DNA of 15,477 nt from an uncultured Deinococcales bacterium (GCA_964247135.1 CAXTTL010000113.1:1-15477); one strand, 5' to 3'. Positions 1 through 15,477 are shown, counted from the stretch's first letter. A program made the numbers and translations. Notes: a model not told the origin generated them from the sequence alone.

Positions 1-1
1 A

Positions 2-295
2 GTCGGCGCAAAAACCGCCAGTTGCGTGTTGATGTTTGACCTCGGACTCGCGGCAATGCCGGTGGACACGCACTTGCACCGCATCGCCAAGCGGCTCGAG
101 TTTGTGGGTGCAGACTCCAGCGCCGTGCAAACCGAAGCTTGGTTTGACGCGCACCTGCCGCGCAGTTGGGCAAAACGCTACGAGTTTCACGTCAACGGTT
201 TTCAGCACGGACGCGAAACCTGCCGCTCGCAAAAACCAAAATGCGCCGAATGCGTGCTGCTCGAGTTGTGCCCGAGCGGGTTGATGTTTGACTAA
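2..295 (+). CDS. nth: Endonuclease III / HhH-GPD DNA glycosylase with C-terminal 4Fe-4S loop (5'-truncated by window edge)
   Basis: The frame is open from position 2: VGAKTASCVLMF (end of the HhH motif with catalytic Lys), PVDTH (catalytic Asp) and C-X6-C-X2-C-X5-C (CRSQKPKCAECVLLELC). Stop TAA 293-295 overlaps the convergent gene's stop. Confidence 0.92.
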   Translation, partial: VGAKTASCVLMFDLGLAAMPVDTHLHRIAKRLEFVGADSSAVQTEAWFDAHLPRSWAKRYEFHVNGFQHGRETCRSQKPKCAECVLLELCPSGLMFD

Positions 296-1551
296 AACTC
301 GAGTTGGGATTTGAACACTGCCAGGTTCACCACGCGATGCTCGAGCCTTGATTGTTCGATGGCGAACGCCAGAAAGTGGCTTTCGAGGTAACTCGAGATC
401 GGTTCAGGTTGATGATTTTGGACGGCTTCAATAAAGGCTGCGGTCAAGCCGTCATCGCCGCCGCCGTGCCGCCCACCAGCCGTTACCGACTCGAGCATCG
501 GAATGACCTCTCCCCTGCCGCCAAATCCGTGAGGCTCGAGTTTGATCTCGTAAAAACCGTCATTGAAAACCGCCCGAAGGCTGGCTTTTGTGCCATCAAT
601 CCGAATCGTGCGCCCCTCCTGCGCCGAAAGTCCGTGCATGGTCAACGTGCCGGAACCGCCACCCTCAAAGTTGAAAGACACCACTTGATTGTCCACCACG
701 TCGTTGTCCATTCGGTAAACGCAACGTCCGTAATTGCTGCTCTCGAGCACCCGCCGCCTCGCCTCGAGTGAGGTGTCGGCGCTGATGGTGGAGGTGGGCC
801 ATTCAATATTGTCGGTCAGGTAAATTTTGGCGGCATGGTAAATGCACGAGTCCTCGGCGGGACAACCGTCCAAACAGCGCTCCGGCGAACCATCGGGCGC
901 ATTCTCGAGTCTGAAATGCTGTAAATTCCCGAAGCTCGAGAGGCTGGAAATCTGTCTGCCCATCAACCAACCGAGCAAGTCCAGATCGTGGGAGCATTTC
1001 GCCAGAATCATGGCACTCGAGCGCCCAGTGTTGCCCCAGTTTCCGCGCACGAACGAATGCGCCATGTGGAGGCTCGAGACGTTCTCACGCCAGGAAACCG
1101 TGACGACCTCGCCGAGTTGACCAGATTGCACGACCTCGCGCAAGGTTTGGAAAAATGGGGTGAACCGCAAAACATAGCCGAGCATCACCACGCGTTCAGA
1201 TGCTCGAGCTGCTTTTGCAACCCGCAGCGTTCCCTCGAGGGTGCTGGCAACGGGTTTCTCGAGCATCAGATGGAAACCGGCTTGCAGGGTTTTGATGGCG
1301 GCGGTTTCGTGCAGGGCATCGGGCAGACAAATAAATGCCGTGGACGCCCGCCCATGTTGAATCGCATCTTCCCAACTCGAGAATCGAAGCTCGAGCGGAA
1401 TCTGGTGCGCATTGCCAAAACGCTCGAGCTTCGTGGGGTCGGCATCGGCGACCGCCACAAATTTGAGCTGGTCCGGATTGTGAAACGCATAATTTCCGTA
1501 CACGTCAAACCCGCGATTTCCCGCTCCCAACATGATGGCGTTTAATGGCAT
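292..1551 (-). CDS. Gfo/Idh/MocA family NAD(P)-dependent oxidoreductase with Cys-containing insert
   Basis: Rossmann motif IMLGAGNRG, LMLEKP and AKCSHDLD; insert CLDGCPAEDSC...GRCVY. The ATG at 1551 is preferred over the track's 1569 because a TATGCT -10 lies 6 nt upstream. Confidence 0.88.
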   Translation of the reverse strand: MPLNAIMLGAGNRGFDVYGNYAFHNPDQLKFVAVADADPTKLERFGNAHQIPLELRFSSWEDAIQHGRASTAFICLPDALHETAAIKTLQAGFHLMLEKPVASTLEGTLRVAKAARASERVVMLGYVLRFTPFFQTLREVVQSGQLGEVVTVSWRENVSSLHMAHSFVRGNWGNTGRSSAMILAKCSHDLDLLGWLMGRQISSLSSFGNLQHFRLENAPDGSPERCLDGCPAEDSCIYHAAKIYLTDNIEWPTSTISADTSLEARRRVLESSNYGRCVYRMDNDVVDNQVVSFNFEGGGSGTLTMHGLSAQEGRTIRIDGTKASLRAVFNDGFYEIKLEPHGFGGRGEVIPMLESVTAGGRHGGGDDGLTAAFIEAVQNHQPEPISSYLESHFLAFAIEQSRLEHRVVNLAVFKSQLEF

Positions 1552-1557
1552 GGCTCG

Positions 1558-1563
1558 AGCATA
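1558..1563 (-). promoter_or_regulatory. Putative -10 element (TATGCT) for a leaderless oxidoreductase transcript
   Basis: Minus strand reads TATGCT-CGAGCC-ATG(1551); no Shine-Dalgarno sequence. Confidence 0.6.
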
Positions 1564-1575
1564 ACGCAAAAACGC

Positions 1576-1581
1576 TAAACT
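1576..1581 (+). promoter_or_regulatory. Putative -10 element (TAAACT) for a leaderless transcript of the 70-aa ORF
   Basis: Plus strand reads TAAACT-CGGGTC-ATG(1588); no Shine-Dalgarno sequence. Confidence 0.6.
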
Positions 1582-1587
1582 CGGGTC

Positions 1588-1800
1588 ATGCTTGAATGGT
1601 CGGAAACGGAATTACCCCACGGCACAATCTGGCTGGAAACCAAGCTGGACAATCTTGAAATTTGGCTCGAGTGGAACGACCGCGTGATGGCGTACCGTTT
1701 TGGGATCGTCAAAAATGATCAACCGTCAAGCAGTTCGCTCGGGTTTGCGGATTCACTCGAGGCTGCAAAATTATTGTGCCTCGAGAGCATTTTGCCTTGA
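1588..1800 (+). CDS. Small acidic, Trp-rich hypothetical protein (70 aa)
   Basis: Fills the gap between two minus-strand genes, and its stop is 1 nt from the convergent stop at 1802-1804. ATG start preceded by TANNNT-N6. Protein-like composition. Confidence 0.65.
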   Translation: MLEWSETELPHGTIWLETKLDNLEIWLEWNDRVMAYRFGIVKNDQPSSSSLGFADSLEAAKLLCLESILP

Positions 1801-1801
1801 G

Positions 1802-3766
1802 TTATTTCTTGTCCTTGACCCAATATTTTCGCCCGCCGATTTGCATAAAACTCGGGTCTTTGCGTCCGCTGGGCAAGAAAATAAATTGTTTGATGATGCG
1901 TCCGTCGTCGTACTTGAATTCGATGGTGTTGCCGTACAGTTTGTAAGCGCCGATGTTGCTGCGCGAGTTGGAACCTGCCACCGAGGCGGTCACATCGCCA
2001 GTTTGCGTTCCCGTATCGGTTGCCCCAAAAAAGAAACTGCTGTTCGCCTCTCGAGAAAAGCGTCCATCTTTACGCAGCAGCAAGTCCACCGACGAGGATG
2101 ATCCGCCTGTGCCGATTGCCGCGCCTTGAACCACCAACGATTCGTAGGCGGCATTCAATTTCAAGCCGTCGAGAGGCTCGAGGGTATTGTATTGGTCGCC
2201 GTCGATGGTTAAACCTGACTTGCTGCGTTTCCAAGTCCTGGGTTTGTCCAAACCAATTTGAATCGTATTGCCTTTGAGGCTGTAAACCTCGCAGACCGGA
2301 AAGCCGCTCGGGTAGGTGCGGCTGCAATCGGCGTCCATCAACCCTTCGGTGTCCTCGAGGTCATCGGTGTAAACGTAACCGTTTTTCTGAAACAACAGGT
2401 ATTCGTAGCAGATGCCACCACACGCCAAGTAGCCGTTGATCGCCACTTGGCTGATGCCATAAAAATACCGTCCCTCGAGTCCGCCCACCCCTGGCGCGGC
2501 TGGGGCTTTGGTCTTGCCAAATTTTGGATTTCGACGCGCTGTGACTTGCCGTGCGCATTCGATTTTGGGATTCCTGCCAAAACTGTATTCCTGGCGTCCC
2601 AATTCATCTTCTTGGTAATAACCCGTTTGGTCGTCCAGTCCGCCCTGCGTGAAATCCAAACTCGAGTAATCGTTGCTCAATTCGCCCGTGATGTTGACCT
2701 TGTAACTCCCCTCGCCGCCAGCGTAACGGTAACGCCGTTCCGCCAAAACCTCGAGCGTCCCCGCCGATTGCCCAGTGCCGTCAATCTTCAGGCATGGGTA
2801 CGAACCTGCTTGCGGGTCTTTGCGTTTGAAGCGCAGTTGCTCGAGTTGCTCATTGCCGCCGCGTTGAAAGCAGCGCACGTCGATTTTGTGGTCTTCGTTG
2901 CCCAGGTCGTACAGCCAGATTTGTGCGCCATCAATACGTTTAAAATTGTAAAAGTGTTTACGCGTTGACCCGAGCGCACCGCCTGTAAAGTACAAGTCGT
3001 AACCATCCATGCGAAATGTTCCGCTCGAGGTGGCAGTGCCGATGCCAACACGGTATTTGTGACCCGCCAGAATCTGCAAGGTCAGGCTGGGAGCGCCGTA
3101 TTTCTCGCCCCTAACCTCTGGGTAACAGTGATACTCGTCGGGAATCGGTTCTTTTTGGGGGTCGAGTTTGGTCTTATTAAACGCCGCAAAGTCAAACGCA
3201 GGCACAGGCTCGAGTTTGGCGGCGGCTGGCACAGTCGTTGGCGTACCCACAGGAGTCTTGATTGGGGTTTTTCCAGGAACGATGCTCGGGTTGGTGGTTG
3301 GAGTTGGCGTCACAGCCACTTTTCCAGCCTGCGCCGCAACCAGCGCGTATTCGCCTGAGTACAACACTTTCAAGTTAAAATCGGTATTCAATGATTTCTC
3401 GAGGTCACGACAATCCGTTTCGGGATCGGTGCTGGACTGGTCGAGTTGGGCATACAATTCCGCGCGTTTCTCCTCCAGGCTGGCGTCAATCCTCGCTTTT
3501 CCGTCGCCCAGCATTAGTGTAACAATCGCATCAATGTTCGGCAAATCCATGCTCACCCGCCACGCCTCGAGCACCTGGGCATTTTGGGTTTTCAGGGCTG
3601 GCACGCGCTGGTCGCACCATTCTTTGACCAGTTTGGCGGTTGCCCCCGCCGCGTAAATCGTGCTGATGGCGCGAAGGTATTCGGGCGTCATGGTTTGTCC
3701 AAAACCAAACGTGGAAAACAACAACACGATTGCCACAAAAATCAGCCGAAAACGATTTGAGGTCAT
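1802..3766 (-). CDS. Secreted multi-domain hypothetical protein (654 aa) with Pro/Thr linker and internal repeat
   Basis: Signal-peptide-like N-terminus (MTSNRFRLIFVAIVLLFSTFGFG-Q), P/T-rich linker at about aa 150-190, two similar ~90-100-aa units, 10 Cys and a beta-rich C-terminus. Confidence 0.85.
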   Translation of the reverse strand: MTSNRFRLIFVAIVLLFSTFGFGQTMTPEYLRAISTIYAAGATAKLVKEWCDQRVPALKTQNAQVLEAWRVSMDLPNIDAIVTLMLGDGKARIDASLEEKRAELYAQLDQSSTDPETDCRDLEKSLNTDFNLKVLYSGEYALVAAQAGKVAVTPTPTTNPSIVPGKTPIKTPVGTPTTVPAAAKLEPVPAFDFAAFNKTKLDPQKEPIPDEYHCYPEVRGEKYGAPSLTLQILAGHKYRVGIGTATSSGTFRMDGYDLYFTGGALGSTRKHFYNFKRIDGAQIWLYDLGNEDHKIDVRCFQRGGNEQLEQLRFKRKDPQAGSYPCLKIDGTGQSAGTLEVLAERRYRYAGGEGSYKVNITGELSNDYSSLDFTQGGLDDQTGYYQEDELGRQEYSFGRNPKIECARQVTARRNPKFGKTKAPAAPGVGGLEGRYFYGISQVAINGYLACGGICYEYLLFQKNGYVYTDDLEDTEGLMDADCSRTYPSGFPVCEVYSLKGNTIQIGLDKPRTWKRSKSGLTIDGDQYNTLEPLDGLKLNAAYESLVVQGAAIGTGGSSSSVDLLLRKDGRFSREANSSFFFGATDTGTQTGDVTASVAGSNSRSNIGAYKLYGNTIEFKYDDGRIIKQFIFLPSGRKDPSFMQIGGRKYWVKDKK

Positions 3767-3772
3767 GGATTT

Positions 3773-3778
3773 ATTATG
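3773..3778 (-). promoter_or_regulatory. Possible -10 element (CATAAT) 6 nt upstream of the 654-aa gene ATG
   Basis: Minus strand CATAAT-AAATCC-ATG(3766); same spacing as the other leaderless starts, but no -35 was seen. Confidence 0.4.
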
Positions 3779-3949
3779 AACTCGAGTCTCAAAACCAGAT
3801 GAGTTTCAATGTGGCGCAGACACGATTCTTTGATAACCCTTAACGCCAGCTCGAGCCAAGAAAACAGGTCAGGGTCTAGCACCTGAACTTCATGAGCATC
3901 CATTTTTAACCACGACTCGAGTCTCATTTTTAAACTCGAGCAAGCCAAA

Positions 3950-4429
3950 TTATGGTTTTGGCATTCCCTTGCTGACCCCTATTGGAAACTCTTGCGCCAT
4001 GCGCTCAATCGTGCGTTGTGCGGTGGCTTCCGCCATTTTCGCAAACGCCCGCCCACCCCATTTTTCAGCAACTGGAAGCTCGAGGTGAACTTCGGCGCGA
4101 AGGTGATAATGGATACTTGAGGTTGCGCCCGTACTGGTCACGCGACCTTCACCGTTGACGGCAGCCCAGAATTTACCGTCAAGCTTTTGCGCGATCAAGT
4201 TCGCGCCGTCTGGCACTGGCTCGAGCGCCGATTTAAAGTCGAGCAACCTTTCGCCCAGAAACGGCACTTCGATCCGCAAATGGGCGAATACCTCATTGCC
4301 CTCGATGCGCAAATTTCGGATAAACGAAACATTTTCGAGGCTCGTTTTGACATCCCGAATAAACGCAATGCCGTCATCAACACCGCCTGGGAATGGAATG
4401 TCAAACTGCCGATCCACCTCGAGGATCAT
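3950..4429 (-). CDS. DUF3809-like protein (Deinococcota; probable SRPBCC/START-like fold)
   Basis: Recognised pattern VPFLGE..L.F.S.LEP.PDGA.L ... HLELP.AEKWGGRAF.KM..A.A.RT.ER. Its start overlaps the upstream stop (TGATG), indicating translational coupling. Confidence 0.75.
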   Translation of the reverse strand: MILEVDRQFDIPFPGGVDDGIAFIRDVKTSLENVSFIRNLRIEGNEVFAHLRIEVPFLGERLLDFKSALEPVPDGANLIAQKLDGKFWAAVNGEGRVTSTGATSSIHYHLRAEVHLELPVAEKWGGRAFAKMAEATAQRTIERMAQEFPIGVSKGMPKP

Positions 4430-4743
4430 CAGTCAATCCATTCGACGGTCAGTTCGCCTTTTTTGGCGGCGTCGGCAATCTCGGTATCGGTTGCGCCGCG
4501 CAATTTGGGCAATTCCTTAAAGCTGCTGGTGTTGGTGGCGTAACCCATGCGCACAATCACTTTTTCGGTGCCTTCCTCTTTGCCCATCTTCCAGACCAGG
4601 TTGCTCGAGAGGGCTTCGATGCTGGCAGCCAAAGCCCCCACGTCTGGCACGGTGGGCATTCCAAAATCGCTCGCGCCGAATTCGAGCGGTTCTGGGGACT
4701 CGAGTTCTTCTTCGGTTAAGAGTTGATGGTTGATTTCGTCCAT
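4429..4743 (-). CDS. DUF3248-like protein (Deinococcota)
   Basis: C-terminal LVWKMGKEEGTEKVIVRMGYA...LPKLR...EI......GELTVEWID matches the family pattern as I recall it. The start is revised from GTG 4791 to ATG 4743 based on the promoter below. Confidence 0.78.
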   Translation of the reverse strand: MDEINHQLLTEEELESPEPLEFGASDFGMPTVPDVGALAASIEALSSNLVWKMGKEEGTEKVIVRMGYATNTSSFKELPKLRGATDTEIADAAKKGELTVEWID

Positions 4744-4749
4744 AACAAA

Positions 4750-4778
4750 AGCGTACCCGAGGTTTGGTTTTACGGCAA
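4750..4778 (-). promoter_or_regulatory. Sigma70-type promoter for a leaderless DUF3248-DUF3809 transcript
   Basis: Minus strand TTGCCG (4778-4773), 17 nt, TACGCT (4755-4750), 6 nt, ATG (4743). Confidence 0.7.
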
Positions 4779-4791
4779 GGACGGCAGACAC

Positions 4792-5913
4792 TTAAAGGCG
4801 GTACAACTCGAGCGCATTGTCGTGCAGGATGCGGCTTGCCGCCCATTGTGCCTCAGGGTTTGTCAGGTCGTGGTCGCTCACCGTCAACTCGAGCGCCTGC
4901 CCGATGATTCGCCGCCCGTGTTTTGCCGCCAGCCAGAACAACTCTGGGGTTCTGGAGGCATCGGTGGAAAATAAAATTTTTGTGATCGGCGCGAGGTGCA
5001 GGGCTTCTCGAGCCGAGGTCAGCATGGCGTGGCTGCTCATGTACGGAATGGTCAAGCCCAAATCCATGAATGCCCCAGGGTAGACGCTGCACAGGTATCC
5101 TGCCTCGCGCACGAAGGGGTAACAGTGCAACATCACGACGCGCAAACCAGCCAGTTCTGAGGCTTCAAAAATCGGGCGCAAATGCAAGGGGTTGGCGAGG
5201 CGTAAATCCAAATCGGGGTCACCGTACCCCGTGTGAAATTGAATCGGCAGTCCAGTTTCAGCCGCGACGCGCAATCCCGTCCAGAGCATCTCATCGAGCA
5301 ACGCCTTGTCGTTCACCCTTGGCGCAACGCCAGGTTCAGTCCCGTACTTCAGGCTCGAGTACGCCCGTTCCAAGTTGCTTGAGTCGTGACGCATGATCTC
5401 GAGTCCAGTGCGGTAAGCAATGATGCTTTTCAAACCGACCAGACTCGGCGCAGTCTCGCGCAGCATTTGCTCGAAAGCCATCATCAAACCGACCCAAGTG
5501 TCATGCTGTGGCACAAGCGCCGCCAGTTCGGTCTCGAGCCGTAAAACGCGTTTGCAGGGCAGCCCAATCATGTTTTGGTTCTGCTCGAGTGGTTGCATCA
5601 CCTCGAGCCAGATGCCGTCATCCACCAACACCTGTTCGATGTTGGTTTGCGCGAACATCGCGCGTGCCAAATCCGTGTAATTCCAAGCCGCTCGAGCCTC
5701 CAACACCGCCGCTCGGGTCGGTTCGCAACCGTAAAAACCTGCCAGTTCCCGAATCGAGCGCCGCGCAAAGATCACATCGGGCACAAATTTCTCGAGCATG
5801 GTCGGGTCGTAAGCCTCGGAGAAAAAAGCTTCGATGGGCGTTTTGCGCCAGATTTCCTCGCGGAACATGGCGTGCGCGTGATGGTCAAGAATTGAGATGT
5901 GCTCGAGGTTCAT
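4792..5913 (-). CDS. Amidohydrolase-2 family protein resembling the N-terminal domain of FluG/NodGS
   Basis: DHHAH metal motif, LKSIIAYRTGL, QFHTGYGDPDL, LHCYPFVREAGYL, KILFSTDA..PE. ATG 5913 is preceded by AAGGGG. Confidence 0.88.
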   Translation of the reverse strand: MNLEHISILDHHAHAMFREEIWRKTPIEAFFSEAYDPTMLEKFVPDVIFARRSIRELAGFYGCEPTRAAVLEARAAWNYTDLARAMFAQTNIEQVLVDDGIWLEVMQPLEQNQNMIGLPCKRVLRLETELAALVPQHDTWVGLMMAFEQMLRETAPSLVGLKSIIAYRTGLEIMRHDSSNLERAYSSLKYGTEPGVAPRVNDKALLDEMLWTGLRVAAETGLPIQFHTGYGDPDLDLRLANPLHLRPIFEASELAGLRVVMLHCYPFVREAGYLCSVYPGAFMDLGLTIPYMSSHAMLTSAREALHLAPITKILFSTDASRTPELFWLAAKHGRRIIGQALELTVSDHDLTNPEAQWAASRILHDNALELYRL

Positions 5914-5941
5914 GGTTTGCCCCTTCAAAATCAAAAATCAG

Positions 5942-6745
5942 TTAATCCGCAACTCGAGCTTGGATTGCCCAAGCCCTGGCAATCATCGAAATCGATCCGT
6001 CAGATTGAACGGGGATTCGTTCCCTCAGGCTTTCTCGGAGGCGAATTCTGGCAGGTTCCTCGAGCAACATCACGTAGGCGGGAGCAGAACCTTGTCCGCC
6101 CAAGAATGGCTGCCAGTAGTCTTCAAAACCCGAAAAGGGTGTCGGAATGTCAATCGCCCTCACCTCGATGTGCTCGAGTTCGGCAGCCGCAAAAAGTTCG
6201 GTCAATGGCTGTGGTTTGCACAGCGCGAAGCGCAAACCTTCGTCCAAAGCGGCGAGGTTGGGATCAAGTTGAACGGCTGCATCCCAAAAGTAACGCATCA
6301 ATTCCATTTTTTCGGCGTAATCCCAGACGTAAGCCCCAATGATGCCACCCTTACCCGTCACCCTTGTCATTTCGGCAAGCGCAGCAGCTTGATCTGGAAC
6401 AAAATTGAGCACCAAACCCGAGACAACCACATCCACACTGGAATCTTCCAAAGGAATTGCACTGGCATTGCCCTGGTAAAACCTGACGCGATCCTTGAGT
6501 TGCCGCCGTGCAGATTCAAGAAATCCTTCAGAGGGTTCGACACCCGTGACCGACAACGGCGAGCAAGCATCCAAAATGGCAGCGCAGAGCGCCCCCGTGC
6601 CACAACCGACGTCCAGCCACCTGCGATCAGGCGGCACACCCAGCCAGTTCAAAAACAATGGGGCAACTTGGCGACTCCAACGACCAACGTATCGCTCATA
6701 GGGATCACCGCGCTCCCAAACGTCTGACACTTGCCGCTTGTTCAT
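5942..6745 (-). CDS. Class I SAM-dependent methyltransferase (Methyltransf_11/25-like)
   Basis: WLDVGCGTG (motif I), VTGVEPS, GNASAIPLEDSSVDVVVSGLVLNF. ATG 6745 is preceded by AGGAG at 7 nt spacing. Confidence 0.9.
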   Translation of the reverse strand: MNKRQVSDVWERGDPYERYVGRWSRQVAPLFLNWLGVPPDRRWLDVGCGTGALCAAILDACSPLSVTGVEPSEGFLESARRQLKDRVRFYQGNASAIPLEDSSVDVVVSGLVLNFVPDQAAALAEMTRVTGKGGIIGAYVWDYAEKMELMRYFWDAAVQLDPNLAALDEGLRFALCKPQPLTELFAAAELEHIEVRAIDIPTPFSGFEDYWQPFLGGQGSAPAYVMLLEEPARIRLRESLRERIPVQSDGSISMIARAWAIQARVAD

Positions 6746-6765
6746 GGGATTACTCCTCTCGAGGG

Positions 6766-8097: not shown

Positions 8098-8173
8098 GAA
8101 GTATTCCTGACTTTTTAAGAGGTTCGAGGTACTTTTTGTTCTGAAACACGAAGATCAGCGATTGCTCTCGCTG

Positions 8174-8288
8174 CCTCTCATCCCCAACCCTGTCTTGCCC
8201 TTAATGCAGCACCTTCTTGGTTTCAAGACGCACCTGACGGGCGAAACCGCTTCGGGCTTGGGCGCTTCTCTCCGAGGAGGGAAGGGAG
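8174..8288. repeat. REP-like C-rich/G-rich intergenic element, apparently interrupted
   Basis: CCTCTCATCCCCAACCC (8174-8190) and the hairpin CTTCTCTC-CGAG-GAGGGAAG (8265-8284), followed by GGAG, are separated by about 74 nt. Single copy in the window. Confidence 0.4.
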
Positions 8289-8363
8289 TTTTGGCGGATT
8301 CTCGAGGAACCAAATATTTTGAGTTCCAAACTCGCATCTTGAGGTTCAAATTTGTCGAACAAG

Positions 8364-9107
8364 CTATTCGCTGATCGCCACCACCCGAGCCGGAAAGCCA
8401 CTGCCGCCGCGCGGTTTCGCCCAGGTCGCCATGACCAACGCCCCGTGCTCTGGCACTTTGTCCAGATTCGTCAACAATTCGATCTGCCAACGATCCAAGC
8501 CCAAAATATAACCCTCGAGCGCCCAATTGCTGGTTTCCTGGCTGGTGGCAATGCCGCCGTCGGTGTCAGTGGTTTCATGACCAACCGCCGTAATTTGACG
8601 CGTTTCAAACAAAAACTCGAGCACCTCTTTGGACCAGCCAGGGAAATGCTGTACGCCGCTGGCGTCACGGTTCGCCATGCGGGCGGTATCAGCCCAACGT
8701 TTGCTCCAATCGGTGCGCATGGCAACAAAAGACCCTGCTGGAATCTGACCATATTTGGTTTCCCAAACCTTAACATCCTCGAGCTTAATGCAGTAATCGG
8801 GATTCGCTTCGACACTTTCCACCACGTTCACCACTACCAGCGGCAGGAGCATCTCCTCCACCGCCAATTGCGCCACATTTCGCCCGCCCGCGTGCATGTG
8901 AAGCGGCGGGTCAACGTGCGTTCCCCACTGCCCGACAAAAGAATACTGATGAATCTCGAACAGCATTCCATCCTCGAGCTTTAAAAAATTGCTGATCTGT
9001 TGGTCTGGAAGCGCTGGAAATTTGGGTTGCCCTGGAAAGAATTCGTGCGTCAAATCCGTGAATTTTGCGGTTTTCAAGTGTTGGTTGTAGATATCCCAGA
9101 GCTTCAT
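8364..9107 (-). CDS. Cyclase family (kynurenine formamidase/isatin hydrolase-like) metal-dependent hydrolase
   Basis: TDLTH, QWGTHVDPPLH (variant of HxGTHxDxPxH), HFPG, GHETTDTD, QIELLTNLDKVP, GSGFPARV. TAAGGAG Shine-Dalgarno upstream. Confidence 0.9.
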   Translation of the reverse strand: MKLWDIYNQHLKTAKFTDLTHEFFPGQPKFPALPDQQISNFLKLEDGMLFEIHQYSFVGQWGTHVDPPLHMHAGGRNVAQLAVEEMLLPLVVVNVVESVEANPDYCIKLEDVKVWETKYGQIPAGSFVAMRTDWSKRWADTARMANRDASGVQHFPGWSKEVLEFLFETRQITAVGHETTDTDGGIATSQETSNWALEGYILGLDRWQIELLTNLDKVPEHGALVMATWAKPRGGSGFPARVVAISE

Positions 9108-9127
9108 GAAACACTCCTTAGCGAAGA

Positions 9128-9162
9128 TGGTTTCTCGAGAAATCCACCTTCTCGAGAAACCA
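9128..9162. repeat. Perfect 14-bp inverted repeat (intergenic stem-loop) between the binding-protein and cyclase genes
   Basis: TGGTTTCTCGAGAA (9128-9141), loop ATCCACC, TTCTCGAGAAACCA (9149-9162). No strong U-tract follows on the coding (minus) strand. Confidence 0.85.
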
Positions 9163-9176
9163 GACTTTTACAATCG

Positions 9177-10355
9177 TTACGGTTTCGGCACGTAGCCAGG
9201 AACCATTTCCGCCGCCAAGAACAAGGCTTTGTTCTTGACGCCGATCACGGTCACGCCTTTTTGCGGCACGCGAACGCCTGGGGCGTAAGTGATTGTGCCC
9301 GTCACGACTATCAAACCTTTGGTGGCGGCGAGCGCATCACGAATTTTTGCGCCCTCGGTGGATTTGGCGCGTTTGATCGCGTCGGCAATCAAGTAAACCG
9401 TGTCGTAACCCAACGCGGCAAAAGCATTGTCAGGGTCCTTGCTGTACTCTTTTTTGTACGCCCCAATGAATTTCTTGACGCTCGAGCTGCCGAGTTTCGC
9501 ATCCATGAGTGCGTGTGTGGTGAAGTAGACGTTGTTCGCGGCGGCACCGCCGACTTGAACCAGCAATGGCGTGTCGTAACCGTCCCCGCCAACAATCGGT
9601 TGGTTGATACCCGCTTGACGCATTTGCTTGACCAGCGTGCCAATATCGTCTGGCAGCGCCGAAACAAAGAGCATTGCGGGTTTGGTTTTGAGTGCCTTGA
9701 GTTTGGTGATTTGCGCCGCGAAACTCTTGTCGCCCGATTTGTAGGTATCCTCGAGCGGAATTTTGCCGCCGCCTTTGAGGTAGGCATCCTTAAAGAATTT
9801 CCCGAGCAGCACCGTGTATTCCGAGCCTTTGTCGATCAGCAGGTACGAGGTTTTGGCTTTCAAGTTTTTCAAACCGAATTCTGCACCCACCGCCGCCTGC
9901 ACATTGTCGCCAAATGGTGCGAGGAACATGTAATCACCAATTTGGGTCGGCAGCAACGGACTGGTCGCGCCTGCGGTCACAAATGGAATCCCCGCCTTTT
10001 GGGCTATCGGTCCGAGTGCCAAGGCGCTGTCCGAATCGGTAAAACCACCGATTGCCACAACCTTATCCGAATCAATCATCTGGCTGGCGATGTTGGTGAT
10101 CGTCGCAGGGTCGGTTTTGCCGTCGTATTCGACCAGTTCAATCTGTCGCCCGAGCACCCCGCCTGCCGCATTGATTTCTTTGGCAGCCAATTTTGCACCG
10201 TTGCTGGCGGGAACATCGAGCGAACTCATGCTGCCCGTCAGGTTGTACGCATTGCCAATTTTGATCGGATCGCCCTGCGCCCCCGAAAATCCTGCCAACA
10301 ACGCGAGCGTGAGCACGGATACCCCAGTGAATCCCAGAACCGTTTTGACTTTCAT
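9177..10355 (-). CDS. ABC transporter substrate-binding protein, LivJ/LivK (Peripla_BP_6) family
   Basis: Signal peptide, then PIKIG...LTG, EINAAGGVLGRQIELVEYD, GGDG and ALGYD. ATG 10355 is preceded by AAAGGAG and is preferred over 10370. Confidence 0.92.
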   Translation of the reverse strand: MKVKTVLGFTGVSVLTLALLAGFSGAQGDPIKIGNAYNLTGSMSSLDVPASNGAKLAAKEINAAGGVLGRQIELVEYDGKTDPATITNIASQMIDSDKVVAIGGFTDSDSALALGPIAQKAGIPFVTAGATSPLLPTQIGDYMFLAPFGDNVQAAVGAEFGLKNLKAKTSYLLIDKGSEYTVLLGKFFKDAYLKGGGKIPLEDTYKSGDKSFAAQITKLKALKTKPAMLFVSALPDDIGTLVKQMRQAGINQPIVGGDGYDTPLLVQVGGAAANNVYFTTHALMDAKLGSSSVKKFIGAYKKEYSKDPDNAFAALGYDTVYLIADAIKRAKSTEGAKIRDALAATKGLIVVTGTITYAPGVRVPQKGVTVIGVKNKALFLAAEMVPGYVPKP

Positions 10356-10661
10356 ACCCTCTCCTTTCATTTCCCCCGAGCAACCCCGAGTTGAAATCCA
10401 AAAAATGGTGTGTGACGTTCAAAATCTTTGGTATCTTGGTTGATCTCAATAACAAACCCGAGTCAATCCAAGCCAAGTACCCAATGCTTGCATTTTGGAT
10501 TTTTCGATCTGCTCGAGTGTTCCATGTTCCATCATACCGAACCCAAGCAACTTCATGTCGAAACCAGAAATCGCGCAAACGCACCTCTTGGGCATCGTCA
10601 CCTCTGATTGCCCTTCCCTCGAGATTCAATTTCGAGAACGTTCTCAACAGCTTCAATCAAC

Positions 10662-10705
10662 CAAAACACTCGAGCCTCACAGTGAATAGAGGCTCGAGTG
10701 TTTTG
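10662..10705 (-). terminator. Probable intrinsic terminator of jag: perfect 17-bp stem, 10-nt loop
   Basis: CAAAACACTCGAGCCTC (10662-10678) / GAGGCTCGAGTGTTTTG (10689-10705), 14 nt after the jag stop. The stem ends in TTTTG on either strand. Confidence 0.75.
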
Positions 10706-10719
10706 CCAATTGTAATCAA

Positions 10720-11346: not shown

Positions 11347-11352
11347 GTCAGG

Positions 11353-11361: not shown

Positions 11362-11399
11362 TCTGGCTGCCTGGGTTGAAGCGCAAATTGAATTGCGGC

Positions 11400-12455: not shown

Positions 12456-12510
12456 GAAATGATTCTCCTCGAGCTTTCCAAGAGCCTGTTTTTGAAGGGA
12501 TGTCGAGCAG

Positions 12511-12572
12511 GGCTATACGGTCCAAGCTTCAAGCGATAAGCCAAAAACTGCTGTTCCTTGGAGCTTATAGCC
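12511..12572. repeat. Imperfect 16-bp inverted repeat (14/16) with 30-nt spacer in the divergent intergenic region
   Basis: GGCTATACGGTCCAAG (12511-12526) versus CTTGGAGCTTATAGCC (12557-12572). Confidence 0.6.
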
Positions 12573-12781
12573 AGAACAATAACAAAATTTTGCCATGTCT
12601 TCGTTCCAACTGACTTCATAAACACGTCCTAACTTTCTATCCTAAAGCACAGGGCGCAAAATGCGTTTCTTGTCTATACAACTCGGCATAAAAACCCAGT
12701 CCAGCAGCGTGTAAAACCCGATTGTTTGTGTTAGGGTACAATTTCAAAATTCAAATAAGCCAAGAATCGGAGAACTTCGAG

Positions 12782-15477
12782 ATGCCGCAACCCAGCCAGT
12801 ATCCATTTATGCCCAAAAAACAAGGGCTTTACGATCCGCAATATGAACACGATGCTTGCGGTATCGGTTTTGTCGCCAACATCCTCGGCGAAAAGTCGCA
12901 CTCAATCGTGCGCGATGGCGTGGCAATTCTTAACAATTTGACCCACCGTGGCGCTCGAGGTGCAGAGGAAAACACGGGCGACGGCGCGGGTATTTTGGTG
13001 CAGATTCCGCACGCGTTTTTGCAAAAGAAAGTGGCGCGGCGCGGTTTTGTGCTGCCAGAACCAGGGCAGTACGGCGTAGGCGTGATTTACATGCCGCCGG
13101 ACGCCACGCACCGTCGGGCGCTCGAGATTGAGTTTGCCAACATTGTCGCCGCCGAGGGGCAGAAGGTCTTGGGCTGGCGTTCAGTGCCGGTGAAAAATGC
13201 GGCGCTGGGCGACACTGCCAAGCGCGGCGAACCAAAAATGCGGCTTGTCTTTATTGCCAGAAACTCGAGCATCACGGATGACATGGCGTTCGAGCGCAAA
13301 CTGTACGTGATTCGCAAACGCGCCGAAAACGAACTTCATTACAGCGCCCAGTTCGTGGGTGGCGAGTATTTTTACGTGCCGAGTTTGTCGTACAAAACCA
13401 TGATTTACAAGGGCATGTTCGTCTCTGACCAGTTGGACGCGTACTTCCCAGACCTTGCCGACCCCGATTTTGTCAGCGCCATCGCCCTGGTTCACTCGAG
13501 GTTCAGCACCAACACCTTCCCGAACTGGGAACGCGCCCACCCGTACCGTTACATCATCCACAACGGCGAGATCAACACCTTGCGCGGCAATGTCAATTGG
13601 TTGCGGGCGCAAGAAGAAATGTTTGAATCCGAATTGTTCGGCGCGGACATCAAAAAGGTTTTGCCAATCATTCAACCCGACGGCAGCGATACCGCCATGT
13701 TCGACAACACCCTCGAGTTTCTGGTGATGGCGGGGCGTTCACTGCCACACGCCCTCATGATGATGATTCCTGAACCGTGGTCAAACCACCAGACCATGAA
13801 CGACGACAAAAAAGCCTTTTACGAATACCACGCCAATTTAATGGAACCCTGGGATGGACCCGCCGCGATTGGTTTCTCGGACGGCATTGTGATTGGTGCG
13901 CTGCTGGATCGCAACGGTTTGCGCCCAGCCCGTTACTGCGTGACCAAAGACAACAAAGTCGTGCTCTCGAGCGAGGTCGGTGTGCTGCCAATAGCCCCAG
14001 AAAACATTGCCTACAACGGGCGGCTCGAGCCTGGGAAGATGTTCTTGGTGGACACTGCGCAAGGGCGAATCATCAGCGATGAAGAGTTGAAAACGCAAAT
14101 CACCACCGCGCAACCGTACCGCGACTGGCTTAACAAATACCAAGTTCGTCTGGCGGATTTGCCACCAGCCCCAGCCGATAAAGTCCCGCACCTCGAGTCT
14201 GACACGATTTTCCAGCGTCAGGAGGTGTTCGGTTACACCGACGAGGACTTGCGGGTGATCCTTGGACCGATGGCGGAAAATGGCATTGAACCGATTGGTT
14301 CGATGGGCAACGATGCAGCGTTGGCGGTGCTCTCGAACAAACCCAAGTTGCTATATAACTATTTCAAACAGCTTTTTGCCCAAGTCACCAATCCACCGAT
14401 TGATGCCATCCGCGAGGAGATCGTGATTGCCACCGAAGTCATGGTCGGCGCGGAAAGCAATTTGCTGAAACCCACCGCGCAAAGCTGCCATCAGATTCGG
14501 CTCGATTACCCGATTCTGACCAACGAAGAGCTGGCGCAGATTCGTCACAGCCGCATTCCAGGTTTTGTCACGGCGACGCTGCCAATACTGTTCAAAGCCG
14601 ATTCTGGCGGTGCGGGATTGCTGCAAGGTTTGGATGAATTGTTCCAAGCCGCCGACAACGCCATCGCTCGAGGCATGAACATGTTAATTCTCAGCGACCG
14701 AGGCGTGACTGCCGAGCAAAGCCCAATTCCGGCGCTGCTGGCGGTGGCGGGTTTGCATCATCACCTTGTACGTCAAGGCACACGCACCAAAATCGGTTTG
14801 ATCCTCGAGAGTGGCGAACCTCGAGAGGTGCATCATTTTGCCGCGTTGATTGGGTACGGCGCGACCGCCATCAACCCGTATTTGTCGTTTGAGTCGATTG
14901 AAAACATGATCGACCAGGGTGTGCTGCTGGGCATTGAGCACAAAAAAGCCATTAAAAATTACGTCAAAGCCGCCATCAAAGGCATTGTCAAAACCACCTC
15001 GAAGATGGGCATTTCGACCATCCAAAGCTATTGCGGCGCACAAATTTTTGAAGCGCTCGGCATCCACCAAACCGTGGTGGATCGGTACTTCACAGGCACG
15101 CCCTCGAGAATCGGCGGCATCGACCTCGAGATTATTGCGCTCGAGGCGAGTATGCGGCACAGGCAAGGTTTCCCGCACCGTCCGACCAACAGCACGACCC
15201 TGCCGATTGGCGGCGAATACCAGTGGCGCTCGGAGGGCGAATACCATCAGTTCAACCCGCAAACCATTCACACCCTGCAAAAAGCTTGCCGCAACAACGA
15301 CTTTGGCGTGTTCAAACAATATTCCAAACTCATTGACGACCAGAGCAGCAAGATGGGCACGCTGCGCGGTTTGTTTGAACTCAAACTCGAGGCAACCGCA
15401 ATTCCGCTCGAGGAAGTCGAATCGGTTGAAGCGATTTGCAAGCGCTTCAAGACGGGCGCGATGAGTTACGGCTCGAT
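12782..15477 (+). CDS. gltB: Glutamate synthase large subunit (3'-truncated by window edge; absent from the ORF track)
   Basis: Hand translation gives MPQPSQYPFMPKKQGLYDPQYEHDACGIGFVA (Ntn Cys at 12857-12859), HRGA, GDGAG, HSRFSTNT, HNGEINT, EPWDGPA, FAQVTNPPID and, in the same frame, RFKTGAMSYGS at the window end. GGAG at 12769-12772. Confidence 0.97.
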   Translation, partial: MPQPSQYPFMPKKQGLYDPQYEHDACGIGFVANILGEKSHSIVRDGVAILNNLTHRGARGAEENTGDGAGILVQIPHAFLQKKVARRGFVLPEPGQYGVGVIYMPPDATHRRALEIEFANIVAAEGQKVLGWRSVPVKNAALGDTAKRGEPKMRLVFIARNSSITDDMAFERKLYVIRKRAENELHYSAQFVGGEYFYVPSLSYKTMIYKGMFVSDQLDAYFPDLADPDFVSAIALVHSRFSTNTFPNWERAHPYRYIIHNGEINTLRGNVNWLRAQEEMFESELFGADIKKVLPIIQPDGSDTAMFDNTLEFLVMAGRSLPHALMMMIPEPWSNHQTMNDDKKAFYEYHANLMEPWDGPAAIGFSDGIVIGALLDRNGLRPARYCVTKDNKVVLSSEVGVLPIAPENIAYNGRLEPGKMFLVDTAQGRIISDEELKTQITTAQPYRDWLNKYQVRLADLPPAPADKVPHLESDTIFQRQEVFGYTDEDLRVILGPMAENGIEPIGSMGNDAALAVLSNKPKLLYNYFKQLFAQVTNPPIDAIREEIVIATEVMVGAESNLLKPTAQSCHQIRLDYPILTNEELAQIRHSRIPGFVTATLPILFKADSGGAGLLQGLDELFQAADNAIARGMNMLILSDRGVTAEQSPIPALLAVAGLHHHLVRQGTRTKIGLILESGEPREVHHFAALIGYGATAINPYLSFESIENMIDQGVLLGIEHKKAIKNYVKAAIKGIVKTTSKMGISTIQSYCGAQIFEALGIHQTVVDRYFTGTPSRIGGIDLEIIALEASMRHRQGFPHRPTNSTTLPIGGEYQWRSEGEYHQFNPQTIHTLQKACRNNDFGVFKQYSKLIDDQSSKMGTLRGLFELKLEATAIPLEEVESVEAICKRFKTGAMSYGS

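What the first reader, a model, noticed from the sequence alone, without database searches (positions are those of the whole stretch)
95..15412. CTCGAG behaves as a highly iterated palindrome (HIP-like) in a non-cyanobacterial genome
Seen: about 112 exact copies in 15.5 kb (hand count, may be off by a few) versus about 4-5 expected at ~55% GC, i.e. roughly 25-fold. Copies occur in every predicted gene and in all three codon phases. In gltB these include CTC-GAG (Leu-Glu, 13121), GCT-CGA-GGT (Ala-Arg-Gly, 12954), AAC-TCG-AGC (13264) and CAC-TCG-AGG within the conserved HSRFSTNT motif (13495). Leu-Glu usage alone therefore cannot explain it. Established: cyanobacterial HIP1 (GCGATCGC) shows the same dispersed, frame-independent pattern and has been linked to a cognate DNA methyltransferase; restriction sites are usually avoided rather than enriched; CTCGAG is the XhoI/PaeR7I site and contains the TaqI core TCGA. 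Inference: a genome-wide system creates or maintains these sites, such as methylation-directed repair bias, a DNA-uptake or recombination signal, or a nucleoid protein binding site. No responsible gene is evident in this window. I cannot tell whether this has been reported for this lineage.
Basis: partly seen in the sequence, partly recalled or inferred. Interest (0 to 1): 0.85.

Follow-up and report, generated by a model that had tools for sequence, protein, structure and literature searches.

The report
Hyper-abundant CTCGAG palindrome in Deinococcota genome
The six-letter palindrome CTCGAG occurs about every 150 bases throughout this uncultured Deinococcus-relative's genome, in genes and between them, and is still being preserved and created, which makes it a denser counterpart, in another phylum, of the unexplained HIP1 palindrome of cyanobacteria.

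Summary
The window holds exactly 112 CTCGAG, against 2.85 expected. The whole 5.09-Mb assembly holds 33,925 (6.66/kb), which makes it the commonest hexamer.

Codon or dipeptide usage does not explain it:
- A within-gene synonymous shuffle expects 3,998±50 in-gene copies against 28,741 observed.
- Non-coding DNA is as dense as coding DNA, 7.1 against 6.6/kb.
- Leu-Glu is the most over-represented dipeptide (O/E 2.35), and 77% of it is spelled CTC-GAG.

The motif is not an artefact: all 19 genomes of the family carry it.

In a 50.7-kb three-species alignment the word is lost 2.7 times more slowly than control hexamers. It is gained 3.9 times faster than neutral expectation, rank 2 of 3,557 hexamers.

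The organism belongs to Deinococcota.

I found no family-wide methyltransferase, XhoI-type nuclease or Vsr, so the agent remains unknown.

Across the phylum the same word ranges from strongly enriched to strongly depleted, and its flanks differ by lineage.

This scan had already noted the motif on another piece of this genome and in other Deinococcota genomes. My searches found no published report.

The parts
95..15412 (.). Span holding all 112 exact CTCGAG copies of the window (7.2 per kb). 97 lie in the 13 called genes and 15 lie outside them.
13121..13126 (+). Phase-0 site in gltB (CTC-GAG, Leu-Glu). The Glu is shared by 78% of 80 orthologues and the Leu by 11%.
12954..12959 (+). Phase-1 site in gltB (GCT-CGA-GGT, Ala-Arg-Gly). 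The Arg is shared by only 15% of orthologues; the consensus is Cys.
13495..13500 (+). Phase-2 site in gltB (CAC-TCG-AGG, His-Ser-Arg) at three residues that are 100% conserved, so the motif is reached by codon choice alone.
13966..13971 (+). Phase-2 site in gltB where this genome has Ser at a column that is Ala in 93% of 80 orthologues (own residue shared by 1%). The motif coincides with an amino-acid replacement.
14024..14029 (+). Phase-0 site in gltB where Glu replaces a Gln present in 89% of orthologues.
1423..1428 (.). Site present only in this genome among six species of the genus. The others read CGTCAA, CGCCAG, CGTCAG, CATCAG and CGTTCG. This is a lineage-specific gain.
904..909 (.). 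Second site unique to this genome among the six species.
115..120 (.). Position that reads CTCCAG here but CTCGAG in all five other species of the genus. This is a lineage-specific loss.
10512..10698 (.). Four intergenic copies (10512, 10618, 10669, 10693) between two called genes, showing that the motif is not confined to coding DNA.

Best explanation
CTCGAG is a genuine, lineage-wide iterated palindrome.

Shown:
- The exact, contiguous hexamer is kept at about one copy per 150 bp by a weak directional bias acting at each site independently, in coding and non-coding DNA alike. Mutations that destroy a copy fix about 2.7 times less often than at other hexamers. Mutations that create a copy fix about 3.9 times more often than neutral expectation.

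Inferred:
- In a simple fixation-bias model these ratios correspond to a scaled advantage S of about 2-4 per site. That predicts a 6- to 45-fold enrichment, and 7- to 35-fold is observed.
- The agent is a conserved host factor that reads the hexamer on double-stranded DNA. My best guess is an abundant DNA-binding or DNA-processing protein (nucleoid organisation or repair scaffold), so that each bound site carries a tiny benefit. I favour this over a classical restriction-modification enzyme, because no cognate methyltransferase or nuclease is conserved in the family.
- The bias is strong enough to override codon preference and to push thousands of mildly deleterious amino-acid changes, mostly to Leu-Glu, into proteins.
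For: Enrichment:
- O/E is 35 under a 1st-order model, against 2.1 for the next palindromic hexamer.
- In-gene copies are 7.2 times the within-gene synonymous shuffle, and 5.7, 14 and 11 times in phases 0, 1 and 2.
- Non-coding DNA holds 7.11/kb at 46% GC, against 6.59/kb in coding DNA.

Effect on proteins:
- There are 23,326 LE dipeptides against 9,945 expected, the top of all dipeptides; EL has O/E 1.01.
- 77% of LE is spelled CTC-GAG, against 4.9% expected from context-free codon use.
- 42% of phase-1 and 49% of phase-2 compatible peptide contexts carry the motif, against 2% and 3% expected.
- The window's genes hold 73 LE against 29.5 expected.

The unit is the bare hexamer:
- Spaced half-sites CTC-N1-8-GAG have O/E 0.6-1.4.
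- All four palindromic 8-mers fall below flank independence, at 0.44-0.92.

Sites behave independently:
- Spacing has CV 0.96.
- Density is flat over gene deciles, and only 11 of 2,031 genes of at least 900 nt lack a site.

Dynamics, from 50.7 kb aligned in three species at 84.6-85.3% pairwise identity:
- Presence patterns are 254 in all three, 114 in two and 88 in one.
- Loss is 114 of 876 (0.13) against 0.356 for control hexamers. This is the 3rd lowest loss fraction of 297 hexamers.
- Gains with a known ancestor are 18 against 4.63 expected, rank 2 of 3,557 (median 0.89, 99th percentile 2.26).
- One-off ancestors became the motif in 10 of 192 cases against 3.73 expected, Poisson p=0.005.
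- Single-transition losses are 17, 20 and 13 at position pairs 1/6, 2/5 and 3/4. Against background transition rates of about 0.04-0.06 per position, that is my arithmetic for 4- to 7-fold protection at every position.

Lineage-wide: 19 of 19 family genomes carry 838-4,448 GCTCGAGC.

No conserved restriction-modification partner.
Against: - No reader protein has been identified. Its existence is inferred only from the sequence statistics.
- Selection on bound sites and biased repair predict the same slowed loss and raised gain, so my data do not separate them.
- Estimated gains (about 71) are only half of estimated losses (about 151) over the three branches. The motif may therefore be slowly decaying in this genus rather than at equilibrium, or gains in unalignable DNA are under-counted.
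- The gain test rests on 18 events.
- In gltB alone, the residues under motifs are not significantly less conserved than the others (p=0.75).
- Gamma-class methyltransferases occur in all 5 well-assembled family genomes checked, and their specificities are unknown.
- G000 is only 84% complete.
Confidence: 0.4

Rival explanations
1. Methylation-directed repair ratchet, as Elhai proposed for cyanobacterial HIPs. An orphan methyltransferase marks CTCGAG or its TCGA core. A nicking enzyme that reads the mark biases mismatch repair towards the strand carrying the motif. Sites then accumulate as a by-product.
For: - In cyanobacteria each HIP word is accompanied by a methyltransferase for that word (Elhai 2015, PMC4390886; abstract and section 3.4 read).
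- CTCGAG is a classical restriction-modification target.
- XhoI-family nucleases with adjacent methyltransferases occur in 3 of 41 relatives searched (G021, G033, and a broken copy in G031).
- Relative G027 iterates G-CTCGAG-C (85% G before the core, 84% C after it, 0.87/kb), the same architecture as HIP1, G-CGATCG-C. It carries a 63% homologue of the XhoI-linked methyltransferase and has no XhoI-family hit.
- Orphan CTCGAG methyltransferases exist in Nocardia (Blow 2016, PMC4752239, passages).
- A hot-spring meta-epigenome preprint reports methylated CTCGAG and TCGA shared by the hosts and phages of one network group. The passages I saw do not name its phylum.
- TCGA outside the motif sits at about its expected count: 54,606 in total minus 33,925 leaves about 20,700. 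That parallels CGATCG in HIP1 genomes.
Against: - The XhoI-linked beta-class enzyme has no orthologue in 0 of 19 family genomes; only generic matches of at most 47% over about 70 residues appear. G000 has none either.
- The gamma-class XhoI neighbour of G031 has no match in G000.
- Beta-class enzymes are missing altogether from the closed genome G011 and from G015.
- TaqI_C-type enzymes occur in 6 of 18 family genomes and not in G000 or G011.
- G000's own unexplained methyltransferases are patchy: 5 of 19, 3-4 of 19, 7 of 19, and one with pseudogenised copies.
- A search with G000's C178 C5 methyltransferase as query (E at most 1e-10) found no match in 5 family genomes.
- G000 has no Vsr.
- One-off variants are only weakly biased to the outer positions. 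My sums give O/E 1.28 for positions 1/6 against 0.96 and 0.99 for the inner pairs.
- No position in the motif shows a deamination-type excess of loss.
- G022 and G038 carry the same methyltransferase-plus-partner module as G027, yet have only 5 and 10 GCTCGAGC.
Confidence: 0.25
2. Methylation-independent, sequence-directed repair or conversion bias. An example would be a nuclease or recombination factor that acts at near-cognate sites and resolves them towards CTCGAG. The motif would then be a selfish or neutral by-product with no function.
For: - Density is uniform in coding and non-coding DNA, flat along genes, and spacing is near-geometric. There is no sign of a position-dependent function.
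- Gains from ancestors two or more changes away are 8. My estimate of the neutral expectation is roughly 1, the difference between 4.63 and 3.73. This hints at multi-base events.
- An earlier, unchecked note of this scan reports a milder enrichment in a phage.
Against: - No candidate enzyme is known.
- Some apparent multi-base gains are 2-bp slippages of the site, for example window 1780 against 1782.
- Neighbours at one mismatch are not depleted (O/E 0.45-1.96).
Confidence: 0.2
3. DNA-uptake or self-recognition signal. The competence machinery or a defence system would prefer DNA that is rich in CTCGAG.
For: - Known uptake sequences are also genome-wide, about 1/kb, and constrain proteins (recalled knowledge, not from a call).
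- The 25- to 35-fold density difference could discriminate self from foreign DNA.
- Motif-poor stretches exist; the largest gap is 2,638 bp.
Against: - Known uptake sequences are 9-12-mers and not palindromic (recalled).
- A 6-mer gives little specificity.
- I ran no test of competence genes.
- The word is depleted, not enriched, in the large Deinococcus-like genus.
Confidence: 0.08
4. Compositional, codon-pair or assembly artefact.
For: Phase 0 (Leu-Glu) holds 17,981 of the 28,741 in-gene sites.
Against: - Copies are 7.2 times the synonymous shuffle.
- Non-coding density equals coding density.
- Phases 1 and 2 are 14 and 11 times over the shuffle.
- The motif is present in 19 of 19 separately assembled family genomes, at conserved orthologous positions.
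Confidence: 0.01

Closest known systems
HIP1 (GCGATCGC) and the alternate HIPs of cyanobacteria (Elhai 2015, PMC4390886; Xu, Lawrence & Durand 2018, PMC5861425)
   Same: - It is a short GC-rich palindrome, tens of times over-represented.
- It is dispersed through genes in all frames and between genes.
- It is conserved between related genomes beyond background. For HIP1 I take this from the Xu 2018 abstract; for this motif.
- The core word sits at roughly expected frequency outside the full motif.
- Word variants are lineage-specific.
   Different: - The word (CTCGAG) and the phylum (Deinococcota) are different.
- It is a hexamer, not an octamer.
- It is about 6.7/kb, against roughly 1/kb quoted for HIPs in Elhai section 3.4.
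- No cognate methyltransferase was found conserved in the family.
- One-off variants are not concentrated at the outer positions.
- Long-range periodicity could not be tested on this fragmented assembly.
- Neither paper mentions CTCGAG.
XhoI / PaeR7I-type type II restriction-modification systems (site CTCGAG)
   Same: - They recognise the same word.
- Such modules do circulate in the same order: G021, G033, and a broken copy in G031.
- The word is strongly depleted in the large Deinococcus-like genus, as expected for a restriction target.
   Different: - The word is enriched 35-fold here, not avoided.
- No XhoI-family nuclease was found in 0 of 19 family genomes.
- Neither linked methyltransferase type has an orthologue.
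Orphan CTCGAG methyltransferase of Nocardia, with motif clusters near dnaA (Blow et al. 2016, PMC4752239; passages read)
   Same: Both involve CTCGAG used outside restriction, and both are lineage-specific.
   Different: - There the motif clusters at the replication origin and co-occurs with a conserved orphan enzyme.
- Here the motif is spread evenly over the genome and no such enzyme was found.
- I did not test origin clustering.
Vsr very-short-patch repair with Dcm in E. coli, which shapes CCWGG/CTWGG frequencies (recalled, not from a call)
   Same: It is a sequence-specific repair bias that changes oligomer frequencies genome-wide.
   Different: - G000 has no Vsr family hit.
- All six motif positions are protected, including T and A, not only the deamination products.
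- The effect here is orders of magnitude larger.
DNA uptake sequences of Neisseria and Pasteurellaceae (recalled)
   Same: They are genome-wide, occur in genes, and affect protein sequences.
   Different: Those are longer, asymmetric words at about 1/kb. This is a 6-bp palindrome at 6.7/kb. Uptake was not tested.

Membership tests
Highly iterated palindrome (HIP) in the sense of Elhai 2015 / Xu 2018 | A short palindrome at least about 15-fold over-represented genome-wide | tested here: met
   33,925 copies against 963 (1st-order) to 2,351 (2nd-order) expected. It is the commonest hexamer.
Highly iterated palindrome (HIP) | Dispersed in coding DNA in all frames and in non-coding DNA, and not part of a longer repeat | tested here: met
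   Phases 0/1/2 hold 17,981/4,195/6,565 sites. Non-coding DNA holds 7.11/kb. Flanks are only weakly biased, and 8-mer palindromes fall below independence.
Highly iterated palindrome (HIP) | Sites conserved between related genomes beyond background | tested here: met
   76-87% of sites are conserved against 38-44% of control hexamers. The loss fraction is 0.13 against 0.356.
Highly iterated palindrome (HIP) | A methyltransferase specific for the word or its core is present in the genomes that carry it (Elhai 2015) | tested here: not met
   No orthogroup tested is family-wide. The XhoI-linked type is in 0 of 19 and TaqI_C in 6 of 18. Beta-class enzymes are missing from the closed genome G011. 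G000's own candidates are in 3-7 of 19. Caveat: specificities cannot be read from sequence, and gamma-class enzymes of unknown site are present.
Highly iterated palindrome (HIP) | Long-range (10-90 kb) periodicity of motif density (Xu 2018) | not testable with these tools
   G000 is in 386 contigs.
HIP1 proper | The word GCGATCGC in cyanobacteria | tested here: not met
   The word is CTCGAG. CGATCG has only 47 copies here. The organism is Deinococcota.
Type II restriction-modification target (XhoI type) | A cognate nuclease plus methyltransferase in the genome, and the site avoided or fully protected | tested here: not met
   PF04555 was found in 0 of 19 family genomes. Linked methyltransferases are absent. 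The site is enriched 35-fold.
Vsr-type very-short-patch repair | A Vsr endonuclease, and protection limited to deamination products | tested here: not met
   G000 has no PF03852 hit (the assembly is 84% complete). Single-transition losses are similarly rare at all three position pairs, 17, 20 and 13 of 876 ancestral sites.
DNA uptake sequence | An asymmetric 9-12-mer recognised by a competence receptor, often paired in terminators | tested here: not met
   The unit is a 6-bp palindrome with no extension. The receptor and uptake itself were not tested.
REP / MITE-type dispersed repeat | Copies share a longer conserved element | tested here: not met
   Flank positions beyond +/-3 are near background. 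REP-like repeats do exist in the window but are separate features.

The most novel reading that the evidence does not exclude
Deinococcota carry an undiscovered genome-maintenance system that reads the bare hexamer CTCGAG without a classical restriction-modification partner. It evolved independently of the cyanobacterial HIP1 system. It comes in lineage-specific versions (CTCGAG, G-CTCGAG-C, C-CTCGAG-G). It is strong enough to rewrite tens of thousands of codons and thousands of residues. If so, iterated palindromes are a recurrent bacterial strategy rather than a cyanobacterial oddity. Cultivable relatives with a moderate enrichment, such as Allomeiothermus silvanus, would make the 30-year-old HIP question open to experiment.
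Probability: 0.35. Interest if true: 0.9.

Novelty: new variant of a known kind. Interest (0 to 1): 0.8.

Why it matters
- HIP1 has been unexplained since the 1990s and has been known only from cyanobacteria.
- A second, independent and much denser case in another phylum allows comparison. Whatever gene set is shared by the motif-rich lineages of both phyla, or whatever tracks the graded CTCGAG density across about 200 Deinococcota genomes, becomes a candidate for the mechanism.
- Within one order the same word runs from 6.7/kb to near absence, which is an unusually clean natural experiment.
- The case shows that a weak per-site bias can override codon usage and shift proteome composition: LE is 2.35 times over-represented.
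- In practice, motif density flags foreign DNA in these genomes.
- XhoI digestion or long-read methylation calls on existing samples could decide the leading hypotheses cheaply.

Tried and rejected
Taxonomy
- gltB relatives in genome contigs pointed to Chloroflexota at about 70% identity. I rejected this as a guide to taxonomy after the DUF3809 result and the plasmid hits. The gene may be an old transfer, or the genome's own lineage may have been left out of that search.
- Ribosomal protein L2 and RpoB, wanted as taxonomic markers, are not in the 84%-complete assembly.

Statistics
- A 4th-order Markov O/E does not flag CTCGAG, because its own pentamers dominate the model. I used lower-order models and shuffles instead.

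Reads
- Sequencing runs: none was listed for window 1-10000 and no RNA holder was listed. I therefore made no read-level check and did not use read laying.

G000's methyltransferase candidates
- C14 is a C5 enzyme next to an NgoPII-type nuclease (GGCC). C189 is next to a MvaI/BcnI-type nuclease. C36 is a close M.PvuII homologue. These are explained by other sites.
- C21 and C192 are MmeI-type, and C169 is HsdM.
- C207 (with the C4-edge fragment), C178, C320 and the C4 466-aa protein are patchy in the family.
- The 1,499-aa C112 protein was not followed further.

Literature
- Six searches found no report of a CTCGAG or HIP-like palindrome in Deinococcota or Chloroflexi.
- The methylome search gave two leads that I read only as passages.
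- Supplementary tables of methylome papers, which might list CTCGAG methylation in Meiothermus or Thermus, were not seen.

In-window amino-acid test
- In gltB the residues under motifs are not significantly less conserved than the others (p=0.75). The genome-wide LE excess carries that claim instead.

Full report
OBSERVATION

The window holds exactly 112 CTCGAG, the first at 95 and the last at 15412. Dinucleotide-preserving shuffles give a mean of 2.85 and a maximum of 8, and none of 200 reaches 112.

My self-trained gene caller found 13 genes in the window, out of 4,431 genes covering 86% of the genome. Every one of the 13 carries at least two copies. 97 of the 112 lie in genes and 15 outside, and all three phases occur.

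The His-Ser-Arg site at 13495 sits on three residues that are invariant in 80 orthologues.

WHOLE GENOME

The window is contig C113 of a 5.09-Mb, 386-contig assembly with 52.6% GC, 84% complete.

- CTCGAG occurs 33,925 times (6.66/kb) and is the commonest hexamer.
- Expectations are 1,371 (0th order), 963 (1st order) and 2,351 (2nd order).
- All 297 contigs of at least 5 kb carry 2.6-10.5 copies per kb.
- Among the 64 palindromic hexamers its O/E of 35 stands alone; the next is 2.1.
- 25 of the 64 lie below 0.2, and GAGCTC has no copy at all.

NOT A CODING ARTEFACT

- Coding DNA has 6.59/kb. Non-coding DNA has 7.11/kb although its GC is only 46%.
- In genes the phases hold 17,981, 4,195 and 6,565 copies. 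Shuffling synonymous codons within each gene (20 replicates) gives 3,127, 291 and 579, a total of 3,998±50 against 28,741 observed.
- Leu-Glu is the most over-represented of all dipeptides (23,326 against 9,945, O/E 2.35), while Glu-Leu is at 1.01.
- 77% of Leu-Glu is spelled CTC-GAG, against 4.9% predicted from codon use in other contexts.
- 42% of [SPTA]-R-[VADEG] contexts and 49% of X-S-[SR] contexts carry the motif, against 2% and 3% expected.
- The window's own genes hold 73 Leu-Glu against 29.5 expected.
- gltB has 9 Leu-Glu, against a mean of 6.1 (range 2-12) in 80 motif-poor orthologues.
- In gltB about 7 of 16 sites coincide with residues that are rare in orthologues, for example Ser for a 93% Ala at 13966. 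Over the whole gene the difference is not significant (p=0.75).

ANATOMY OF THE WORD

- Flanks are only mildly biased: G at -1 (0.39), C at +1 (0.38), A at -3 and T at +3 (0.37).
- The four palindromic 8-mers are below what independent flanks predict, at 0.44-0.92.
- Spaced half-sites CTC-N(1-8)-GAG are not enriched, at 0.6-1.4. The contiguous hexamer is therefore the unit.
- 62% of all TCGA lie inside the motif. TCGA outside it numbers about 20,700, close to expectation.
- Spacing is near-geometric (mean 148, CV 0.96), with a 3-base ripple from phase 0 and a deficit below about 20 bp.
- Density is flat along genes, and only 11 of 2,031 genes of at least 900 nt lack a site.
- The longest motif-free stretch is 2,638 bp.
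- One-mismatch variants are not strongly depleted (O/E 0.45-1.96). Together they number 22,412 loci against 33,925 perfect sites.

WHO IT IS

gltB's best named relatives are Chloroflexota MAGs at about 70% identity, which misled me at first. Three things then pointed to Deinococcota:

- Earlier notes of this scan place the genome in Deinococcota.
- The window's DUF3809 gene belongs to a family that, among 14 named control genomes, is found only in Thermus thermophilus and Deinococcus radiodurans.
- The window's ABC substrate-binding protein has its two best matches among 72,556 plasmids in Deinococcus psychrotolerans (75.5%, with the same cyclase neighbour) and Allomeiothermus silvanus (72.9%). 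The next best is 57%.

NOT AN ARTEFACT, AND HOW FAR IT REACHES

All 19 genomes of the family, G000 included, carry 838-4,448 GCTCGAGC, while the reversed word has 0-165 copies.

A survey of 201 genomes of the phylum shows a graded picture:

| Group | Genomes | CTCGAG |
|---|---|---|
| This family (f1) | 3 | 5.2-6.7/kb |
| Genus g13 | 18 | 3,336-18,927 copies (1.4-3.5/kb) |
| g18, g19, g35 and several f2 genera | - | 1.5-3.6/kb |
| 2-Mb genus g9 | 30 | about 0.9/kb, same as its reversed-word control |
| Genus g7 | 83 | only 26-1,010 copies per genome, depleted |

The reversed word GAGCTC is itself a restriction site and is avoided in f1, so it is an imperfect control.

Named anchors, 50 kb of plasmid each, agree with this picture:
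- A. silvanus: 1.26/kb, O/E 3.5.
- D. radiodurans: 0.16/kb, O/E 0.43.
- T. thermophilus: 0.9/kb, O/E 1.7.

Flanks differ by lineage:
- G027 iterates G-CTCGAG-C, with 85% G before the core, 84% C after it, and 0.87/kb.
- G196 prefers C-CTCGAG-G (64% and 68%).

DYNAMICS

Against five species of the same genus at about 85% identity, 76-87% of the window's sites are conserved, against 38-44% of control hexamers. Of 55 positions covered in all six genomes, 23 have the motif in all six, 14 in five and 6 in one only.

I extended this to 50.7 kb aligned in three species with star-like distances of 84.6-85.3%.

- The motif is present in all three at 254 positions, in two at 114 and in one at 88.
- Where the other two species agree, an ancestral motif was lost in 114 of 876 cases (0.13), against 0.356 for control hexamers. 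That is the third lowest loss fraction of 297 hexamers.
- Gains with a known ancestor number 18 against 4.63 expected from the background substitution matrix. That is O/E 3.9, rank 2 of 3,557 hexamers (median 0.89, 99th percentile 2.26).
- One-off ancestors became the motif in 10 of 192 cases, against 3.73 expected (p=0.005).
- Single-transition losses number 17, 20 and 13 at position pairs 1/6, 2/5 and 3/4. By my arithmetic against the background transition rates, all six positions are protected about 4- to 7-fold, and no position shows a deamination-like excess.
- Estimated totals are about 71 gains and about 151 losses over the three branches. The motif is therefore near equilibrium or slowly declining in this genus.

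Inference: in a fixation-bias model, a gain ratio of 3.9 and a loss ratio of 0.37 correspond to a scaled per-site advantage S of about 2-4. The predicted enrichment, e^S, is about 6-45, and it brackets the observed 7-fold (against the shuffle) to 35-fold (against the Markov model). Selection on each site and biased repair both predict this pattern. Conservation alone, the argument of Xu 2018 (abstract read), does not separate them.

SEARCH FOR THE AGENT

G000 carries many restriction-modification genes, and they explain its avoided words:
- A C5 enzyme beside an NgoPII-type nuclease: GGCC has 380 copies against 23,441 expected.
- A beta-class enzyme beside a MvaI/BcnI-type nuclease: CCSGG has about 430 against 5,408.
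- A close M.PvuII homologue (PDB 1boo, E 1.5e-149): CAGCTG has 15 against 1,311.
- Two MmeI-type enzymes and an HsdM.

The remaining candidates are patchy in the family:
- The C207 type is in 5 of 19.
- The C178 C5 enzyme is in 3-4 of 19.
- The C320 D12-class enzyme is in 7 of 19.
- The C4 466-aa protein is in a few genomes, two of them with stop codons.

Other tests:
- No XhoI-family nuclease was found in 0 of 19 family genomes. It does occur in G021 and G033, and broken in G031.
- G000 has no Vsr.
- The methyltransferase next to the XhoI nuclease in G021 and G033 is a 340-aa beta-class enzyme with an SPPY motif.
- It has orthologues only in G033 (73%) and in G027, G022 and G038 (63%). There are none in the family and none in G000.
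- The gamma-class neighbour in G031 has no match in G000.
- TaqI_C-type enzymes occur in 6 of 18 family genomes, but not in G000 or in the closed genome G011. They occur in 3 of 3 genomes of g9.
- Beta-class enzymes are absent altogether from G011 and G015.
- Gamma-class enzymes of unknown site are present in all 5 well-assembled family genomes checked.

The methylation model therefore lacks its first component in this family. It is not excluded.

LITERATURE

- Elhai 2015: abstract and section 3.4 read, plus term searches.
- Xu 2018: abstract read, plus term searches. Neither paper mentions CTCGAG.
- Six full-text searches found no report of such a motif in Deinococcota or Chloroflexi.
- Blow 2016 (passages) describes orphan CTCGAG methyltransferases in Nocardia, with motif clusters near dnaA.
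- A 2026 preprint (passages) reports methylated CTCGAG and TCGA shared within one hot-spring host-phage group. The passages I saw do not name its phylum.
- Supplements were closed. Methylome tables that might list CTCGAG in Meiothermus or Thermus were not seen.

VERDICT

It is a HIP-like iterated palindrome of a new word in a new phylum. It is kept in place by an ongoing weak per-site bias, and it has changed codon use and protein composition.

The agent is unknown:
- I lean to an unidentified reader of the hexamer that is not a classical restriction-modification enzyme (0.4).
- The methylation-directed ratchet comes second (0.25).
- A methylation-independent repair bias comes third (0.2).

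The scan had already noted the motif on another piece of this genome and in other Deinococcota genomes. New here are the polarised gain/loss test, the negative methyltransferase co-occurrence tests, the phylum-wide gradient with depletion in one genus, and the lineage-specific flanks.

Noticed in passing
whole genome G000 (for example C14:36040-37933, C36:20010-21056, C189:4077-5632): Palindrome avoidance is extreme: 25 of 64 palindromic hexamers have O/E below 0.2. GAGCTC has 0 copies (984 expected) and GGGCCC has 1. GGCC has 380 against 23,441, CCSGG about 430 against 5,408, and CAGCTG 15 against 1,311. Three matching restriction-modification pairs are encoded: NgoPII-type, MvaI/BcnI-type and a close M.PvuII homologue.
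   Followed up: partly
relative G027 (L143, L149-L158), with G022 (L144) and G038 (L145): In G027 the iterated word is the 8-mer GCTCGAGC (126 of 165 CTCGAG in 145 kb). That is the HIP1-like architecture G+site+C, at about 1 per 1.1 kb. G027 has a 63% homologue of the XhoI-linked methyltransferase plus a conserved partner of about 200 aa with no known family. G022 and G038 have the same two-gene module but only 5 and 10 GCTCGAGC.
   Followed up: partly
relative G196 (L162, L163): A different flank preference around the same core: C at -1 (64%) and G at +1 (68%). CCTCGAGG is the top 8-mer, and CTCGAG is at 2.95/kb at 66% GC.
   Followed up: no
window 8128-8325 and 12477-12637: Two intergenic stretches match dozens of short dispersed copies (71-100% identity) in G000 and all five same-genus genomes. 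They look like REP-type repeats, consistent with earlier notes of a RAYT/REP system in this genome.
   Followed up: no
window 12722-15475 (gltB): The best named relatives of this glutamate synthase are Chloroflexota/Anaerolineae MAGs at about 70% identity, and no Deinococcota appear among the 80 loci kept. Neighbouring genes look Deinococcota-like. This may be an old horizontal transfer, since the gene's motif density of 5.8/kb is normal, or the genome's own lineage was left out of that search.
   Followed up: no
window 9177-10370 (-): The ABC substrate-binding gene has the lowest motif density in the window (2 sites, 1.7/kb). It is 73-75% identical to plasmid-borne genes of A. silvanus and D. 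psychrotolerans. A 464-aa antisense ORF (9000-10394 +) with no family hit overlaps it and is probably a shadow ORF.
   Followed up: no
window 1802-3766 (-): A 654-aa protein with no Pfam family at E up to 0.001.
   Followed up: no
G000 tRNA genes (66 found by aragorn): tRNA genes hold 10 CTCGAG in 5,129 bp. At genome density 34 would be expected. By my estimate this is still several times the chance level.
   Followed up: no
G000:C112 (15.5 kb) and other low-density contigs (C289, C137, C231, C75, C42): These contigs have about half the usual motif density (2.6-3.6/kb). C112 carries a 1,499-aa Eco57I/N6_Mtase-type protein. They are possibly more recently acquired DNA.
   Followed up: no
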